Shown one piece after another: positions 12,001 through 30,000 of a stretch of 64,000 bases of DNA. How positions within the stretch are numbered: the stretch's first letter is position 1; the number at the start of each line of letters is the position of its first letter. Origin of the DNA: an uncultured bacterium (GTDB lineage: Bacteria > Zixibacteria > MSB-5A5 > GN15 > FEB-12); NCBI GenBank assembly GCA_965372795.1, contig CBDVDR010000010.1, positions 32,001 to 96,000 of the forward strand, read 5' to 3'. The position numbers were made by a program.

Positions 12001-15000
12001 CAAGACCTACTTCACCCACTAAAACGATCATTATCAGAAGGCACCAGATTGCCCAAGACCAGATACCGAAAATTCGTTGTAATTTCCTTGTCACTCTAAA
12101 TAGCTCCATTATGTGGTTTAGACATGTACGGAATCTGTCGGTTCGTCTGGTTTGCTCTTAACTAAACTGCTTTAGTGCTACTTGTTTTCGTTTGAAACAT
12201 CATTCCGATTATTTGGAAAGATGTTCTTTCTTCGACCGTGGGGCTATAGTCGATAATACAATGTTCTTGTAGCAAATTATGCTACGGATCCGGAGTTGAA
12301 TGTAGCAAGACAAGTTAGGTGGCTAATGCCCGAAGGTCACAGACAAAAGCGGCCTGAGCAGTTGTAACATTCCCCCCATAAATCGGTTCAGTTTAAGAGA
12401 TAGTTTTTTGTTCCATGTTCCACTCCCTATCTTTGGTCAAGTTCCAGAAGGGTAAGCGTTTTTTAGAGTGTGGTCAGGTTTGACACCATCGAATGCAGTT
12501 TTAACTCGATAGAGAGCTATCTAATGTTTTGGTATGATTCAATTGTATCGCGTGAAATCTGAGATAGATGTTTCAATTTAGGATAAAACATTTTAAGAAA
12601 GTTATCAGCATACTCCTGAAAAAACTTATCAATCCGTTTCTTATTGTCAGAGAATCTGAGCTTCTCTAAGTGAATTCATTAGACGAATGTGCGCTTGTTT
12701 ATGAGTTAGTACTTGAATATTTTAATAATTTACGGACATATATGACAATCAACAGGATTGGGACCACTATTAAACATATAATCTACAAAATAAGTCAAAT
12801 CTGATATACCTAATGTACAGTTACCATCAATGTCAAATTCTTCTTCACAGACAGGAGCAGGACCACCAGTAAACATATAGGCAACGAAGTAAGTCAGGTC
12901 TGAAATATCAACATCAGCATCATTGTTACTGTCGCCTGGCGAATTGCAACAATTTGATGGAGAAGGATTAAAAATTGCCAACCCCTCATTGATTAGGCGG
13001 GTATGGCTGAAAATAGAAGTGTCATTTTCTGGAAGGTTAATAGGTGTAATCACACTTATAAGGTTGGTGTCTGAATACTGTGGCATTGCCCAGCTCTCAA
13101 AGATAAGATGATCTGGCTGTCCAATTGCTGAATTAACCTCGTTAATCCAATCAATCGCGCCCTCATAATAGACTTCATCAGTATACTGTCCATACAGAAA
13201 AAGTTGAGTAGTGAACGAAAGATCAATCAAGATGGGGGCAAAGGATATGTTATGGGCATGAAGAAAGGTCTCCAGTTCCAGCAGGTCTGCCTTTAGTTGG
13301 GCGAGGGTTACCCTGCCATAGATTGGTCCCGCATAGTCGATAATCCTGAGTCCATGTATATCCAGATGTATGAATGGAAGATTAATACCCAGGTTTTCCA
13401 ACTCTGCCACATATGTTTTAATTCCTTCAACATCCATCTCGGGATAGAGAATAATTTGTCCAACAATGATGGAGGGAGCTGCATTATTCATCCGGGTGAT
13501 AAAGTCCGCAACCATAGCAGCAATTTCAGCTAAACTTTCAGTTTTACATTCAGGGCCATCTAAAGGAGGGTAGATGGGAGAATACCATCTTCTGATTGGT
13601 TCATCTATAGCTACATAGCGGACTGTTCCCCCATTATCCTGAACATTGATAATTGCATCCACTGTCCAGTTGAAAGCATTTTGTGCGGCAATTTGCCTCT
13701 CTAAAATACAATCCACAGGTGTTCCTAATGGCGTTTGCGGTAAGATCCCTGCTCCCTCAATGCAAATATCAATTCCCCAGTCATCTAATTTTTTGAACGC
13801 CTGAACTTGAGCAAGATTGGCAAGGGTGTTTGAGTTGCACAAGCCACCCATGCAAGGCCATGAGTTAACATGGTGAGTAAGAAACTGAAAGACATCAATT
13901 CTTGATCTGGCAGAATCCCACTGGGCAGGGTTGGTGAATAACTGCAGCATATCGGTGCTCCCTAAGCTGGGTCCGTACCATACTTTGCTGCTTTCTGCAG
14001 GTTGGCTGCGGGTAACGGGGCAAACAATTGTGATTGCAAGCAGAAACAGCATGGCTGTTCGCGAAAATATTGTTTTCATCTCTTCAAACTCAATTCATAG
14101 TCCCGTCGTTCCAAACACAGGAGAGAACTTCCCACAAAGATACGAGCAATGAAGTAAGTGACATCTGCTATGTTGAGAGTGTTATTCCCTCCAGGTGGAC
14201 CACACTTTGGATGGGTTATTCTCATGTCACTAAGATACAATGATTCGATAGATTTACAAGAAAGGAAATATCAGGCAATTAAACCAATTTTTTCAAATCG
14301 GTGGAAAAAGTTCGAAAGTTAGATAGGTATGCAATTGTAAGGTATTAGTAGGTAACGAATTAAAAAATGCGGGCTAGTTGGGATACATATCGAACCAACA
14401 TAGTTGGATTTATTTAAAAAAAATAGCATCATCAAAATGCCGTCAGGTCAAGCCATTTAAAATGGCGGGCCATCGTGGACTATTTTAGAACTGCGGCTTA
14501 AGTATAATTGATATAGTGAATTTTGAAATCAAGAATAATTTATTTGATTTCCAATTTAATCTCTTAGATTTTTGTCATTTTTTTCTTAAAATGTTTGAGA
14601 GGGGAATCGAAAGCATTGCCACTATAACTACTTGTGTAACATTGGATTATAATAATGCGGGCTATCGTGGACAATTTTGGAACTGCGGCATAGTAGATAA
14701 TTAATATAGACGAAAGCAACTCTTAATACTCTAAATTTGAATATGTTATCTGGATTATCTAAAAGAAATCTCTTGTAGAAATTTCTTAACTGTTTGAGTA
14801 TGTGGATGTTTCTCACCAAAAACACTGAGAAGAATATCATAAGCTCTTTTCCACAGTTCCCTCGCTTTTTCAAGTTGACCCAAAGCTTGATATAACAAAG
14901 CTAAATTGGACTGACGTATTGCGACAGCGGGATGTCTGTCACCGTAGTTTTTAATATCTGTCTGCAAAACTTGTTCTAACAACTCTCTTGCTTTTTCATA

Positions 15001-27000: not shown

Positions 27001-30000
27001 CTAAAATCTCTTTGGTCTCGTTGTCCAGCGTTGCCATCTCAGTCAATATTTCCTTTGGACTTCGTAATGGTGCCTCTTCTGGTGTATTTGGGTTTTTCAC
27101 ACTTAGATCATAGGTTTCAGTGTTGATATTGGCAATATTCACGCTCCAACATCTTTCATTCTCCGGTTTACTCTTTTGCAGTTTTACAAACTCTGCCATA
27201 TCATTATCATTGAGCGGATTGGTCTTGCCCATATTGCGACCCGGATCAAGCTGGTAGTACCAAATCTTCTTGGTCGGTTCACCTTTGTTAAAAAACAGTA
27301 CTACCGTTTTCACACCTGCCCCTAAAAACGTCCCACCTGGCATATCTAAAATTGTATGCAGGTTACAGTTTTCCAGTAGATGTTTCCTCAGAGAGATAGA
27401 GGCATTGTCGGTATTGCTCAAGAATGTATTTTTGATAACTATCCCGGCACGACCGCCGGCTTTGAGGGTTTTGATAAAGTGCTGCAAAAACAGAAAAGCG
27501 GTCTCACTGGTTTTAATATTAAAATTCTGCTGAACTTCTTTGTGCTCTTTAGCACCAAAGGGTGGGTTTGCCATTATCACTTTGTATCTATCTTTTTCCT
27601 GAATATCCCGAATGTTCTCACTTAGAGTATTTGTGTGGCTAATATTGGGGGCCTCTATGCCATGAAGAATCATATTCATAATACCGATGATATACGCCAG
27701 ATTTTTCTTTTCCTTACCGTAGAAGGTTTTTTCCTGAAGAGTTTTTAAATCGGTAGTGGATAATGAATCTCTGTCCTTTGTCATATGAGCGAAGGCTTCA
27801 CACAGGAAGCCTGCTGAACCCACCGCACCATCATAGATGGTTTCCCCTATCTGTGGGTTTACAACCTCAATGATAGCCCTAATAAGTGGTCTGGGAGTGT
27901 AATACTGCCCGCCGTTACGCCCGGCATTACCCATATTCTTAATTTTACTCTCATAGAGATGCGAAAGCTCGTGCTTGTCTTTAGTCGTTCGAAATTGTAT
28001 TTCATCGATATGATCTATGATTTCACGGAGATTATAACCGCTTTGTATTTTGTTTTTGAGTTCAGAGAATATTTCACCAATTTTATATTCGATAGTTTTT
28101 GAATTGTCAGCCTTTTCTTTGAATTTTGAGAGATATGGGAAAAGTTTGCCGTTGACAAACTGAACCAAATCGGGACCACTCATAGCTTTGTGATGATCGA
28201 GTTTACCATCGGATGTTTTTGGCATCGCCCAGTTTGCCCAGCGGTATTCTTCATCTAATATGAAAGTGTATTTTTTACCCTTAAGTTCGGCTGAATCTTT
28301 CTTATCGAGTTCCAGATCATCCAGATACCGCAAAAACAAAATCCATGAGGTTTGCCCGATATAGTCTAACTCACTATCGGCACCAGCGTCTTTATAAAGG
28401 ACATCATCAATATTTTTAAAAGTCTGTTCAAACATTCGATGCAACTCCTAATAGCTTATGATATGATTACTGTCTGAATTATTTCACCCACAGCGTTCAA
28501 TTGTTTACATTTAATTAGATTTCGAGCCTTTCAAAGACCTTTCCCCTAAGTTGTTGTTACGTTTCAAATAATATGATAAATATATCATTGTATGTCAAAT
28601 GAATAAGAATACGATTGATTTTGAAGATTTACATGCCTATTTTTAAAATATTAAGTAAATAGATAAATTAACGGAGGATTTAGTGGGCTTGATTGATTCA
28701 AAGAAATTTGGTCTAAATCCAATAATTGATTCAAATACTAAAGTAATGATTTTGGGATCGTTACCTGGAGATGAATCTATTAGATTACAAGAATACTATG
28801 CTAACAATAATAATGACTTCTGGAAGTTAACCAGTCATGCTATTAGTGAAGATATTACTAAATTTAGCTATAAAGAAAAAATACAAAAACTATTAAAAAA
28901 CAATATTGGTTTGTGGGATGTTTTTAAATTAGCTAATCGACCAGGAAGCTTGGATTCAGATATAAATTATGAAGAAATTAACGATTTCAAATGGCTTAAG
29001 AATAATTATCCTAAAATTAAATTAATTTCCTTTAATGGCAAAAAAGCCGGAAAATATACGAGAGCTTTAAATGATATTGGCTATGAAACAATAGTCATCC
29101 CATCTTCAAGTTGTGCAAAAATAAAAATAAAAAATCGTGCATAAATTTGGCAATCATCAATCAGTTTAATAAAATAATTTCTTAAAATCATAGATATCTT
29201 TAATTGAATCATGGATGAGAAAAACAAAAACAAATCTTCCATAGCTGAATCTGAAAATTACAGACAAGTATACGCATATCTATTAGGTACAGGGGAATCA
29301 CCACTATCATCTGTTAAAAGTGTAGTTATTACTGCAAAACGATTTGATTTAAAGCTTAATATCACAGGTGAAAAAGGATCTGTTTATAATCGAATAATTA
29401 CGCTTCTGAAAAAAAATAAGTTGCAATTTACTGAAATAGAATATTCTCCGAAGATACGAAACAAACCGGATGAGTGGTATTGTGATACTGATAATACAAG
29501 TTTGCATATTTGGGTGCCAGAATCAAAACATCGTATTGCAGACATTGGACTTTTGGTTTCGTTTTATATTAATTATCATCTTACCAAACTTAGAGAGAAC
29601 GTAACTGATTTCCCAAAACCAAAAATTGACATCTTGTACTTATTACTATTAATGGAAATTTTCGCTGATACAAATGAAAAATCTTTGAGCAATAGATTGT
29701 TTAGAGATTTACTTAATTCTGAAAACAATTCTGTTATTTCTGTTTCAAACAATATAGATACTTACTACAACGAAATGCATGCTGTTAATGGCATAGCAAA
29801 AAATTTATCTGAGTACACTCTGTTATATCTTGGATTTACTTCAGATTATGACCTTATGAAAGAACTGATTGCTAATTCTCATTTAAAGGATCATCCTCTA
29901 AATAAAAATTTTAAGTCCTTCATATTACCTGATGTCAAATATGTCTGGTATCTTAAATCAAGCGAATGGGATGTAGATAGCCTTAGGCTGATTCTCCAAA

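What a model noticed while it worked through the whole genome (the two positions that open the first line are those of the whole stretch)
14755..28500. Roco GTPase and NB-ARC/TPR STAND ATPase fused in one 1812-aa protein beside a type I R-M system
Gene C10:46755-52193 (minus strand) encodes a PDC-M28B-like N-terminal module, LRRs, Roc GTPase, COR-A and COR-B followed by an NB-ARC ATPase and a long TPR array in a single 1812-aa frame; it lies directly beside a type I restriction-modification operon, an integrase and a serine recombinase. I read it as an anti-phage or stress sensor that chains two different molecular switches (a LRRK2-type RocCOR GTPase and an Apaf-1/R-protein-type NB-ARC ATPase), which would give bacterial Roco proteins, whose function is unknown, a place in immunity. 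Such a double-switch protein could also serve as a bacterial model for how RocCOR modules pass signals to a neighbouring domain.
Evidence so far: Pfam: LRR_8 340-394, Roc 475-586 (E 3e-24), COR-A 642-780 (6e-40), COR-B 793-935 (7e-35), NB-ARC 1190-1349 (4e-12), TPR_12/TPR_10 1547-1788. Neighbours: HsdR 800 aa (PADLOC E 7e-135), a PDC-S14-like gene (4e-55), HsdS 386 aa (3e-83), HsdM 485 aa (4e-163), then a phage integrase 362 aa and a serine recombinase 482 aa; tRNA-Ser at C10:66152. PADLOC: residues 7-242 match the candidate defence protein PDC-M28B (E 4e-27); the same module heads a 619-aa pentapeptide-repeat protein next to a ThsB-like TIR protein on C7. Database search over the whole length: 105 proteins at E<=1e-40, but apart from the protein itself none covers more than 45% of the query: they are LRR-Roc-COR proteins or NB-ARC-TP [...]
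(Added by a program. Inside this text positions count along the whole contig: contig position 32,001 is position 1 of the stretch shown here. "Call 12" and the like, gene names such as g00115 and contig names such as C1 are that model's own, and its searches are not shown. The text may have been shortened before it was handed on; [...] marks where a part breaks off. The agent that wrote the report below was given it as the finding of a first reader that could run no searches.)

Follow-up and report, generated by a model that had tools for sequence, protein, structure and literature searches.

The report
Three-switch Roco–STAND fusion in defence island
One uninterrupted 1812-residue gene in an uncultured bacterium joins a ParA-like domain, an LRRK2-type Roco GTPase and a complete NB-ARC/TPR receptor copied from a gene elsewhere in the same genome; it looks like a one-off variant of a catalogued but untested family of candidate bacterial immune cassettes.

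Summary

Four points change the picture:
- The "PDC-M28B-like" N-terminus is a KGGVGR Arg-P-loop ParA/MinD-like domain, so the protein has three P-loop modules.
- Residues 988-1812 are a whole NB-ARC-TPR gene, 72% identical to a stand-alone 864-aa paralogue on contig C4. Homology starts at an internal Met and includes a 252-nt exact patch.
- The gene does not abut the R-M operon. It is the last gene of its own operon, after a membrane protein and a 221-aa protein.
- That 221-aa protein is a TIR-less relative of FxsC_Cterm, the usual upstream partner of KGGVGR genes.

I found no second Roc-COR + NB-ARC protein:
- 0 of 264 retrieved proteins.
- 0 of 40 related genomes.
- 0 of 80 KGGVGR loci.
- 0 of 4 metagenome loci.

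Read support could not be checked. Earlier notes of this scan hold Roco (39) and KGGVGR (7) findings on other DNA, but none with this fusion. A defence role is inferred only. Bacterial Roc-COR proteins were already predicted to act in conflict systems (Kaur et al. 2020). My verdict is a real but singleton new variant of a known kind, of moderate interest.

The parts
20857..21702 (-). First gene of the operon. P0267 is a 281-aa polytopic membrane protein of no known family and a candidate effector or anchor.
   Evidence: The ORF is and its translation. A Kyte-Doolittle scan finds at least 3 TM segments (43-61, 81-99, 113-131). Pfam, NCBIfam and PADLOC give no hit. A homologue lies directly upstream of the P0266-like gene in L012 (24% over 254 aa, E 1.8e-8). 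The ORF overlaps the next gene by 14 nt.
20205..20870 (-). Second gene. P0266 is a 221-aa, TIR-less relative of the FxsC C-terminal domain, the usual upstream partner of KGGVGR genes.
   Evidence: It ends 12 nt before the giant's ATG. It is homologous to the upstream-coupled ORFs of the three closest KGGVGR loci: L010 (36%, E 1.6e-33), L011 and L012. Profile-profile comparison with the C-terminal halves of TIR/EAD7 partners gives probability 96.2% and E 2.5e-9 over 134 columns. Those partners are FxsC proteins by NCBIfam. There is no similarity to TIR itself.
14755..20193 (-). Third gene: the 1812-aa fusion protein P0001.
19324..20193 (-). Residues 1-290: KGGVGR-motif ParA/MinD-like domain, with K18-G-G-V-G-R23-S (Arg in place of the P-loop Lys).
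   Evidence: NCBIfam NF047398 scores 155.4 bits against a cutoff of 90. Pfam gives AAA_31 and CbiA and PADLOC gives PDC-M28B. The invariant motifs appear in alignments A2 and A5.
18799..19203 (-). Residues about 331-465: leucine-rich repeats.
   Evidence: Pfam LRR_8 340-394, LRR_14 341-434 and LRR_4 383-421.
18274..18783 (-). Residues 471-640: Roc GTPase, with G1 G479-EAGVGKTS-487, DFGGQ 530-534 and NEKSD 585-589.
   Evidence: Pfam Roc 475-586. The motifs match those of ten relatives and the invariant columns of A2.
17389..18270 (-). Residues 642-935: COR-A and COR-B.
   Evidence: Pfam COR-A 5.8e-40 and COR-B 6.6e-35.
17233..17388 (-). Residues 936-987: the fusion linker, unique sequence with no homologue.
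   Evidence: Segment BLAST finds no match among 264 proteins. Residues 960-987 are modelled with pLDDT below 50. Frame 0 is open while frames +1 and +2 are full of stops.
16639..17232 (-). Residues 988-1185: helical N-terminal domain of the captured STAND gene, fold unassigned. M988 aligns with the start region of the stand-alone paralogue.
   Evidence: Alignment A1 with 8 stand-alone relatives. The AF2 model is all-helical with mean pLDDT 67. Foldseek's best hit has E 0.36 and VIA-wide's best has Z 5.5.
15634..16638 (-). Residues 1186-1520: NB-ARC ATPase, with Walker A G1209-MGGIGKTT-1217, Walker B IID1288N, TSR1314 and YKMH1484P.
   Evidence: Pfam NB-ARC. The motifs were read from the alignment with the paralogue.
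16357..16608 (-). A 252-nt stretch identical base for base to the C4 paralogue. It is either a gene-conversion patch or an assembly collapse.
   Evidence: It is the longest exact run in the MAFFT alignment, in a background of about 75-88% identity. It shows 0 differences in 84 codons, while dS elsewhere is about 0.47-0.51.
14758..15633 (-). Residues 1521-1812: TPR array of 42-aa units.
   Evidence: Pfam TPR_12 and TPR_10. Five copies show a 126-nt periodicity (family D1).
21916..28444 (-). Neighbouring type I R-M operon: hsdM, hsdS, a 174-aa ORF, a PDC-S14-like gene and hsdR. It is a separate module with host-like G+C.
   Evidence: PADLOC. Its genes have G+C 0.36-0.40, against 0.25-0.30 for the three-gene operon.
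31405..34237 (.). Right end of the island: tyrosine integrase, large serine recombinase (+ strand) and tRNA-Ser(tga) (- strand).
   Evidence: DNA to the right of the tRNA is syntenic with relative G005.

Best explanation
**What it is**
- The 1812-aa frame is a real fused gene.
- It is the last gene of a three-gene operon: membrane protein P0267, then the FxsC_Cterm-like protein P0266, then the giant.
- The operon is a variant of the widespread but untested 'KGGVGR ParA-like protein plus tightly coupled upstream partner' cassette. The catalogued actinobacterial form of that cassette is the FxsC-FxsT pair.
- The KGGVGR protein's variable C-terminal part here is LRR-Roc-COR followed by a complete NB-ARC-TPR STAND protein. 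That STAND unit derives from the same lineage as a stand-alone paralogue in the same genome.

**Proposed mechanism (all inferred)**
1. The TPR array, and possibly the LRRs, bind a trigger such as a phage protein.
2. The NB-ARC module exchanges nucleotide and oligomerises.
3. The Roc-COR module passes or gates this through its GTP-dependent dimer-monomer cycle, as shown for C. tepidum Roco.
4. The clustered N-terminal KGGVGR domains engage P0266.
5. P0266 lacks the TIR or EAD7 head that its relatives carry, so the neighbouring membrane protein P0267 is the most likely executioner.

**Shown and inferred**
- Shown: the anatomy, the paralogy, the conserved gene coupling and the intact motifs.
- Inferred: binding, order of signalling, effector identity and any role in phage defence.
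For: **The gene and its modules**
- One open frame, with all domains above their curated cutoffs.
- Family motifs of all three NTPase modules are kept.

**Origin and upkeep of the C-terminal half**
- It is 72% identical over giant residues 988-1796 (811 alignment columns) to the 864-aa C4 gene. Homology begins at M988, the region of the paralogue's start, and the flanks do not align.
- dN/dS is 0.34 overall and 0.20 in the NB-ARC remainder.
- Against the G005 outgroup, 55 changes are unique to the giant and 39 to C4, so there is no sign of decay.

**Relatives with the same N-terminal half**
- They end in TIR (P0020) or EAD7 (P0159). The STAND unit therefore sits where an output module sits elsewhere.

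**Coupling to an upstream partner**
- 69 of 80 KGGVGR loci have a same-strand upstream ORF, and 60 of these overlap or lie within 30 nt.
- By Pfam, 21 of 33 tested upstream ORFs are TIR, 1 DUF4062 and 1 EAD7.
- A local TIR profile hits 45 of 69.
- P0266 is homologous to the partners of the three closest KGGVGR loci and to the FxsC_Cterm-type half of the TIR partners.
- The P0267-like, P0266-like, KGGVGR order recurs in L012.

**Island context**
-.

**Literature**
- Conflict-system logic for AP-GTPase, STAND and inactive MinD/ParA domains: PMC7159879 (passages).
- GTP-driven monomerisation of CtRoco: PMC11052575 (passages).
Against: - The fusion is a singleton in one metagenome-assembled genome.
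- Composition changes at the junction: G+C 0.283 and GC3 0.185 before M988, 0.340 and 0.265 after it.
- No reads could be examined.
- No recognised catalytic effector is present anywhere in the operon.
- The stand-alone paralogue and its G005 orthologue sit among housekeeping genes, not defence genes.
- No genome examined has a Roco gene next to an NB-ARC-TPR gene, so the two switches show no independent linkage.
- The P0267 homology rests on one locus at 24% identity. L060 has the pair without a membrane gene.
- The KGGVGR domain was predicted to be catalytically inactive by Kaur et al.
Confidence: 0.45

Rival explanations
1. The fusion is a sequencing or assembly artefact. On this view two adjacent co-directional genes (KGGVGR-LRR-Roc-COR and NB-ARC-TPR) are separated in reality by a stop codon, or the contig is a chimera of two populations.
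For: - The genome is a MAG of 69 contigs and the fusion is a singleton.
- Composition steps sharply at the junction.
- A 252-nt exact repeat shared with C4 lies 620 nt downstream and could mislead an assembler.
- The AT-rich linker has many codons one change away from a stop.
- No run was listed, so coverage is unknown.
Against: - The junction (residues 936-987) lies in unique sequence outside the repeat. A swap at the repeat would still leave Roc-COR joined to the helical domain and the start of the NB-ARC.
- Frame 0 stays open through 52 AT-rich codons, while the two other frames are full of stops.
- There is no alternative long frame, so a frameshift is excluded.
- Even if this rival were true, the two genes would be adjacent and in frame in one operon.
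Confidence: 0.12
2. The fusion is real but a recent evolutionary accident with no integrated function. The two halves work independently, for example the STAND half translated from M988, or the fused product is neutral or on its way to decay.
For: - The fused gene was found in 0 of 40 related genomes, and the same-genus genome has no match at all.
- Met988 is retained exactly where the paralogue starts.
- The linker is modelled as disordered.
- The stand-alone form is evidently sufficient on its own in C4 and in G005.
Against: - dS of about 0.44-0.5 to the paralogue means the copy is not very recent. It kept dN/dS at 0.34 and all motifs.
- The linker has remained open.
- Relatives place output modules at this same position after COR-B.
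Confidence: 0.25
3. The gene is real and functional but is not an anti-phage system. It could be a stress, developmental or kin-recognition signalling protein, or a regulator, as many bacterial STAND proteins are.
For: - The stand-alone paralogues sit beside superoxide dismutase, transporters and SecDF.
- No nuclease, TIR, protease or other killing domain is present.
- L060 carries the basal cassette between housekeeping genes.
- No experimental anti-phage result for any Roco or KGGVGR protein turned up in searches.
Against: - The gene lies in an AT-rich island at a tRNA, with R-M genes and recombinases.
- Most KGGVGR genes are coupled to TIR genes.
- Relatives of the N-terminal half end in TIR or EAD7.
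- The family is sporadic and absent from the nearest relative.
Confidence: 0.18

Closest known systems
FxsC-FxsT pair of the actinobacterial FxSxx-COOH system (NCBIfam NF040588/TIGR04276 and NF040586 with NF047398). Kaur et al. 2020 mention what I take, by my own reading, to be the same pair: a 'peptide-processing system' coupled to an AP-ATPase with an inactive MinD/ParA-like domain.
   Same: - The upstream partner has the FxsC_Cterm-type domain.
- The downstream protein starts with KGGVGR and ends with NB-ARC-TPR. It scores 227.6 bits on NF040586.
- The two genes are tightly coupled.
   Different: - The score is below the equivalog cutoff of 300.
- P0266 lacks the TIR-like N-terminus.
- No radical-SAM (FxsB-like) family was found among the neighbouring ORFs scanned. 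The small FxsA peptide gene was not looked for.
- An LRR-Roc-COR module and a helical domain lie between KGGVGR and NB-ARC.
- A membrane protein gene comes first.
Prokaryotic LRR-Roc-COR (Roco, 'AP-GTPase') proteins, such as C. tepidum Roco.
   Same: - The LRR-Roc-COR-A-COR-B core is present with family motifs.
- It is 45-59% identical to cyanobacterial and other Roco proteins in Roc and COR.
   Different: - This protein carries an N-terminal KGGVGR domain. Among retrieved proteins only P0020 and P0159 share that.
- It also carries a whole STAND protein after COR-B. CtRoco has neither.
Bacterial NB-ARC-TPR STAND proteins (AP-ATPase clade, Avs-like pattern-recognition receptors).
   Same: - An N-terminal domain, then NB-ARC, then a TPR sensor.
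- The C-terminal half is 30-56% identical in the NB-ARC segment to stand-alone proteins P0003, P0004, P0063, P0145, P0164 and P0227.
   Different: - No PADLOC Avs model matches at E <= 0.001.
- The N-terminal domain is a helical bundle of no assigned fold, not a nuclease, protease or TIR.
- Here the unit is not free-standing.
PADLOC candidate system PDC-M28 (model PDC-M28B).
   Same: Residues 7-242 match PDC-M28B at E 4.4e-27.
   Different: - This is only the KGGVGR domain. Four other KGGVGR proteins with different partners match equally well.
- No neighbour matches any PADLOC model for a partner protein.
[quoted passage not shown]
   Same: The same two receptor architectures are proposed there as immune receptors.
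   Different: In the algae they are separate gene families. Here they are in one polypeptide, in a bacterium.

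Membership tests
Roco (Roc-COR GTPase) | A Roc G domain directly followed by COR-A and COR-B. 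| tested here: met
   Pfam Roc 86.2 bits, COR-A 136.9 bits and COR-B 120.5 bits, all above their cutoffs.
Roco (Roc-COR GTPase) | Intact G motifs (P-loop GxxxxGK[ST], DxxGQ and a G4-like motif). | tested here: met
   GEAGVGKTS 479-487, DFGGQ 530-534 and NEKSD 585-589 are the same as in ten relatives.
Roco (Roc-COR GTPase) | GTP binding and hydrolysis, with a nucleotide-dependent dimer-monomer cycle. | not testable with these tools
   This is biochemistry. It is known for CtRoco (PMC11052575).
STAND AP-ATPase / NB-ARC | The NB-ARC domain with Walker A, Walker B, a sensor Arg and the winged-helix His. | tested here: met
   Pfam NB-ARC scores 46.6 bits against a cutoff of 23.5. GMGGIGKTT 1209-1217, IID1288N, TSR1314 and KMH1484P were read. 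The motif labels are recalled knowledge.
KGGVGR-motif variant AAA ATPase (NF047398) | A domain model hit above cutoff, with Arg in place of the P-loop Lys. | tested here: met
   155.4 bits against a cutoff of 90. K18GGVGR23S is invariant in A2 and A5.
FxsT (FxSxx-COOH system TPR protein, NF040586) | An equivalog score of at least 300 bits. | tested here: not met
   227.6 bits. A true FxsT (L024) scores 1030 bits.
FxSxx-COOH system | FxsA peptide and FxsB radical-SAM genes in the neighbourhood. | tested here: not met
   No radical-SAM family was found among the ORFs scanned between 8 and 36 kb. The small FxsA peptide gene was not looked for. The gene list of the system is recalled from NCBIfam naming, not read in a paper.
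FxsC (partner protein) | A TIR-like N-terminal domain (NF040588) plus FxsC_Cterm (TIGR04276). | tested here: not met
   P0266 gives no NCBIfam hit at E 0.01 and has no TIR similarity. Only remote homology to the C-terminal domain was found (probability 96.2%; its closest homologue L010up hits TIGR04276 at E 0.0011).
PADLOC PDC-M28 | All component proteins of the candidate system are present. | tested here: not met
   Only model B matches. The 13 neighbours scanned give no other PDC-M28 hit.
Avs-type antiviral STAND | A match to PADLOC Avs models, with an N-terminal effector such as a nuclease, protease or TIR. | tested here: inconclusive
   No Avs model matches at E <= 0.001. The N-terminal helical domain has no assigned fold. 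Newer Avs clades (bioRxiv 10.64898/2026.01.04.697583, passages) are not in the library.
Type I restriction-modification (neighbour) | HsdR, HsdM and HsdS in one operon. | tested here: met
   PADLOC REase_I 7.2e-135, MTase_I 2.7e-163 and Specificity_I 2.8e-83.

The most novel reading that the evidence does not exclude
The operon P0267-P0266-giant is an undescribed membrane-acting abortive-infection system. In it a natural chimera wires three nucleotide switches in series: an Arg-P-loop ParA-like domain, a Roc-COR GTPase and an NB-ARC ATPase. Oligomerisation of an NLR-type ATPase would then be read out through an LRRK2-type GTPase onto a ParA-like adaptor and its FxsC_Cterm-like partner. That would give the first tractable natural case of Roc-COR receiving input from, or passing it to, a covalently attached STAND module.
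Probability: 0.2. Interest if true: 0.8.

Novelty: new variant of a known kind. Interest (0 to 1): 0.5.

Why it matters
**If the fused protein works as one unit**
- It would show that Roc-COR and NB-ARC switches can be coupled in cis.
- It would offer a small bacterial system for asking how a Roc-COR module talks to a neighbouring domain, an open question for LRRK2.

**More solid and more general**
- KGGVGR ParA-like genes are nearly always translationally coupled to an FxsC-type partner, usually with a TIR head.
- A TIR-less partner family also exists, sometimes with a membrane protein.
- This defines a large, untested class of candidate immune cassettes reaching well beyond the actinobacterial FxSxx-COOH loci.

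**Limits**
- The fusion is a single occurrence in a MAG.
- No read check was possible.
- No effector chemistry is recognised.

Tried and rejected
**Reads and independent copies**
- Sequencing runs for 14700-21750: none was listed, and no RNA holder was listed. Coverage and expression are therefore unknown.
- Metagenome scan with residues 851-1250, which span the junction: 4 loci, all matching only the helical/NB-ARC side.

**Island borders**
- tRNA-Ser 3' repeats were sought with up to 3 mismatches and by blastn-short. Only chance-level 9-13-mers turned up.
- The left flank 1-16000 has almost no DNA match in G001, G005 or G003, and the G005 tRNA-Ser upstream flank is not syntenic. The left border is unresolved.

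**Frameshift origin of the fusion**
- Rejected, because frames +1 and +2 are full of stops.

**Other candidate double-switch proteins**
- P0196 (1847 aa, LRR-Roc-COR...TPR) has a single P-loop only.
- P0005, P0122, P0123 and P0169 are tandem double Roc-COR proteins. The precomputed 'NB-ARC' label on P0005 is just the Roc P-loop.

**Fold of the helical domain**
- Foldseek against PDB gave a best E of 0.36.
- VIA-wide gave a best Z of 5.5.
- The protein atlas gave no usable hit.

**P0266**
- Word search found only itself.
- The atlas gave a best score of 0.85 with a low recognition value, which is only a lead.
- The single-sequence AF2 model had pLDDT 38 and is unusable.
- The PDB sequence profile search gave a best E of 0.48.
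- A weak Pfam SNaCT7 hit at E 0.058 is not accepted.
- Comparison with a TIR profile gave probability 0.1%.

**Complex prediction**
- KGGVGR domain (1-300) with P0266: no verdict, score 0.27 against a mark of 0.32.

**Genome scan**
- The genome-contig scan was meant to find KGGVGR-Roco loci. It used only KGGVGR motifs and returned no Roco locus (0 of 80).

**Literature**
- Searches for experimental Roco defence work and for 'KGGVGR' found none.
- The 'PDC-M28' search listed 8 of 2,760 papers holding either term, and none of the 8 holds 'PDC-M28'.

Full report
**1. Observation**

Window 14755-20193 (- strand) is a single ATG-to-stop frame of 1812 codons.

| Domain | Residues | E-value |
|---|---|---|
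| LRR_8 | 340-394 | 1.4e-12 |
| Roc | 475-586 | 2.5e-24 |
| COR-A | 642-780 | 5.8e-40 |
| COR-B | 793-935 | 6.6e-35 |
| NB-ARC | 1190-1349 | 3.5e-12 |
| TPR_12/TPR_10 | 1547-1788 | 7.2e-54 / 8.4e-48 |

- PADLOC gives PDC-M28B at 7-242.
- The type I R-M genes, the PDC-S14-like gene, the tyrosine integrase, the large serine recombinase and tRNA-Ser(tga) are all present.
- G+C falls from about 0.40-0.46 to 0.28-0.39 between roughly 14 kb and 34 kb.
- DNA to the right of the tRNA is syntenic with a related genome.
- The region is therefore an island at tRNA-Ser. I could not fix its left border.

**2.

(a) A third nucleotide-binding module.
- The N-terminal module is the NCBIfam 'KGGVGR-motif variant AAA ATPase' (155.4 bits against a cutoff of 90).
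- This is a ParA/MinD-like domain whose P-loop lysine is arginine (K18-G-G-V-G-R23-S).
- The protein therefore carries three P-loop modules.

(b) The gene is not directly beside hsdR.
- Two same-strand ORFs lie between them. P0267 (20857-21702, 281 aa) has at least 3 TM segments. P0266 (20205-20870, 221 aa) follows it.
- The two overlap by 14 nt, and P0266 ends 12 nt before the giant's ATG.
- A 213-nt gap separates P0267 from hsdR.
- The three-gene block has G+C 0.25-0.30, while the R-M genes have 0.36-0.40. The island is a mosaic, and R-M adjacency is weak evidence for a joint function.

**3. Origin of the fusion**

A tblastn of protein segments against the organism's own genome (3.35 Mb, 69 contigs) gave these matches:
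- a stand-alone 864-aa gene on contig C4 (208493-211087, -);
- a separate LRR-Roc-COR gene on C1;
- a KGGVGR gene on C7.

The C4 protein aligns with giant residues 988-1796 at 72% identity (581 of 811 columns).
- Homology begins at Met988, which aligns with the paralogue's start region.
- Homology stops at the gene ends, and the flanks do not align.
- Residues 988-1185 are thus not a 'linker'. They are the conserved N-terminal domain of stand-alone NB-ARC-TPR proteins (alignment A1 with 8 relatives).

The fusion is head-to-tail: [KGGVGR-LRR-Roc-COR] + a 52-residue unique linker + [a whole STAND gene].

Evidence that the copy has been kept under constraint:
- dS between the copies is 0.44 and dN/dS is 0.34, falling to 0.20 in the NB-ARC remainder.
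- Against the orthologue in relative G005, the giant's copy has 55 unique changes and C4 has 39 (by my arithmetic chi-square is about 2.7, not significant).
- The captured copy is therefore neither brand-new nor decaying.

One 252-nt stretch (window 16357-16608, around Walker A) is identical base for base.
- It shows 0 differences in 84 codons.
- It is either a gene-conversion patch or a collapse in assembly.

Composition changes at the join:

| Segment | G+C | GC3 |
|---|---|---|
| Giant, before M988 | 0.283 | 0.185 |
| Giant, after M988 | 0.340 | 0.265 |
| C4 paralogue | 0.337 | 0.266 |

**4. Could it be an artefact?**

- No sequencing run was listed, so read support is untested.
- Earlier scan notes call this genome a Zixibacteria MAG. 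I did not verify that.

Against an artefact:
- The junction lies in unique sequence about 620 nt upstream of the exact repeat. A mis-join at the repeat would still leave Roc-COR fused to the helical domain.
- Frame 0 is open through the linker, while frames +1 and +2 are full of stops. That excludes a frameshift.

A single miscalled stop in this AT-rich linker cannot be excluded. Even then the two genes would be adjacent and in frame. I give this rival 0.12.

**5. How unique is it?**

| Search | Result |
|---|---|
| Word-indexed search over the whole length: 120 listed of 176 hits | Mapped by seven query segments, none has both Roc/COR and NB-ARC similarity |
| Exhaustive HMMER search of 1.84 billion representatives with residues 471-1520 | The best non-self hits are tandem double Roc-COR proteins. 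Among the best 150 none has both modules |
| Both searches together | 0 of 264 non-query proteins. Weakly scoring fusions below the top 150 cannot be excluded |
| 40 genomes of the same family and order | 0 have the fused gene. G005 has a stand-alone orthologue of the C-half (55%). Five Roco loci have no NB-ARC-TPR neighbour. The same-genus genome has no match |
| 80 KGGVGR loci from genome contigs | 0 carry Roc/COR |
| Metagenome scan with junction residues 851-1250 | None of the 4 loci covers the COR-B side |

Other proteins do combine Roc-COR with another P-loop module, in different arrangements:
- P0071: ATPase_2/AAA_22, then LRR-Roc-COR-EAD7.
- P0036: AAA_16, then LRR-Roc-COR.
- P0034: LRR-Roc-COR-TPR, then AAA_21/AAA_15.

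The closest relatives of the N-terminal half are P0020 (KGGVGR-LRR-Roc-COR-TIR) and P0159 (the same with EAD7). In the giant, the STAND unit occupies the place of an output module.

**6. The cassette**

An earlier scan note (e1-4991306) said that KGGVGR genes usually follow a small TIR gene. I tested this on the 80 loci.
- 69 have a same-strand upstream ORF, and 60 of these overlap or lie within 30 nt.
- By Pfam, of 33 tested: 21 are TIR_2, 1 DUF4062, 1 EAD7, 2 HTH-like and 8 have no family.
- A local TIR profile hits 45 of 69.
- NCBIfam names the actinobacterial ones FxsC (TIR-like N-terminus plus FxsC_Cterm), followed by FxsT (KGGVGR plus NB-ARC-TPR, 1030 bits on NF040586).

P0266 is not an orphan.
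- It matches the upstream ORFs of the three loci whose KGGVGR domains are closest to the giant's: L010 at 36% and E 1.6e-33, L011, and L012. It matches L060 weakly.
- A profile of this family aligns with the C-terminal halves of the TIR/EAD7 partners at hhalign probability 96.2%, E 2.5e-9, over 134 columns. They share a YG-x3-DW-x-P motif.
- The family shows no similarity to TIR.
- It is rare: 7 proteins at E <= 0.001, none named.

P0267 has a homologue directly upstream of the P0266-like gene in L012 (E 1.8e-8) but not in L060.

The basal cassette is therefore a P0266-like protein plus KGGVGR-TPR, or a TM protein plus a P0266-like protein plus KGGVGR. The window holds an elaborated version of it.

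**7. Mechanism**

Shown:
- intact family motifs in all three modules;
- conserved coupling to the partner gene;
- the output-position logic.

From the literature:
- CtRoco is a dimer that monomerises on GTP binding, with a large LRR movement (PMC11052575, passages).
- Kaur et al. 2020 (PMC7159879, passages) place AP-GTPases, STAND ATPases and predicted-inactive MinD/ParA-like domains in conflict systems that act by forming multimers.
- TPR sensors of bacterial STANDs bind phage proteins (bioRxiv 10.64898/2026.01.04.697583, passages).

Inferred sequence of events:
1. A trigger binds the TPR array and/or the LRRs.
2. The NB-ARC module oligomerises.
3. The Roc-COR module gates or relays this.
4. 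The clustered KGGVGR domains recruit P0266.
5. The output goes through the membrane protein P0267, because no TIR, nuclease or protease is present.

The fold of the helical domain 988-1185 is unassigned (pLDDT 67; Foldseek best E 0.36; VIA best Z 5.5). It could itself be the STAND unit's output.

**8. Novelty and verdict**

- The idea that bacterial Roc-COR proteins belong to immunity-like conflict systems is in print as a prediction (Kaur et al. 2020). Earlier notes of this scan cite the same authors' 2021 paper (PMC8195603) for it, but the passages I saw there did not discuss Roc-COR.
- This scan has already noted Roco sensors (39 notes) and KGGVGR proteins (7 notes) on other DNA. None of those notes has this fusion.
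- No experimental test of any Roco or KGGVGR protein in phage defence turned up in searches.
- New here are the Roc-COR plus NB-ARC chain, which is a singleton, its origin by capture of a resident paralogue, and the TIR-less FxsC_Cterm-like partner family with its membrane-protein neighbour.
- I rate it a new variant of a known kind, interest 0.5.

Noticed in passing
window 14462-14497 and 14654-14689: Two 36-nt direct repeats (0 and 2 mismatches to a degenerate pattern; none expected by chance) lie in the 675-nt spacer just downstream of the giant gene. A third, looser copy seems to sit near 14370. Their function is unknown. They might be a recombinase site or a small repeat element.
   Followed up: partly
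window 24320-25294 and 25269-25793: Two extra genes sit inside the type I R-M operon, between hsdS and hsdR. One is a PDC-S14-like 324-aa protein with a sub-threshold GIY-YIG hit at residues 79-122 (E 0.059). The other is a 174-aa ORF with a weak NACHT hit (E 0.0017).
   Followed up: no
G000 contig C7:39108-42117: A second KGGVGR cassette lies in the same genome: two small ORFs (158 and 214 aa), then a 619-aa protein that starts with the KGGVGR module. The 214-aa ORF resembles a Pfam-verified TIR protein (E 1e-19). The genes overlap or abut, and a replication-initiator-like ORF lies upstream.
   Followed up: partly
P0004 (JGI metagenome protein, 1214 aa): This stand-alone relative of the C-terminal half continues after its TPR array into a second partial NB-ARC-like stretch and a C-terminal TIR-like sequence. 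Members of this STAND clade can therefore carry a C-terminal TIR.
   Followed up: no
window 28683-29144: A DNA-deoxyinosine (hypoxanthine) glycosylase gene (TIGR04274, 1.9e-46) lies in the AT-rich part of the island, next to a 458-aa unknown protein and a MerR-like gene, upstream of the integrase.
   Followed up: no
window 12730-14079: The C-terminal 80 residues of this 449-aa ORF of no known family (window 12742-12981) match several places in related genomes at the DNA level. This suggests a shared C-terminal sorting or repeat domain.
   Followed up: no
L068 (Anaerolineae MAG) and L087 (Synechococcales MAG): These are 1459-aa KGGVGR proteins. The upstream partner in L068 carries EAD7 plus an FxsC_Cterm-like domain instead of TIR, so the partner's N-terminal head is exchangeable.
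   Followed up: partly
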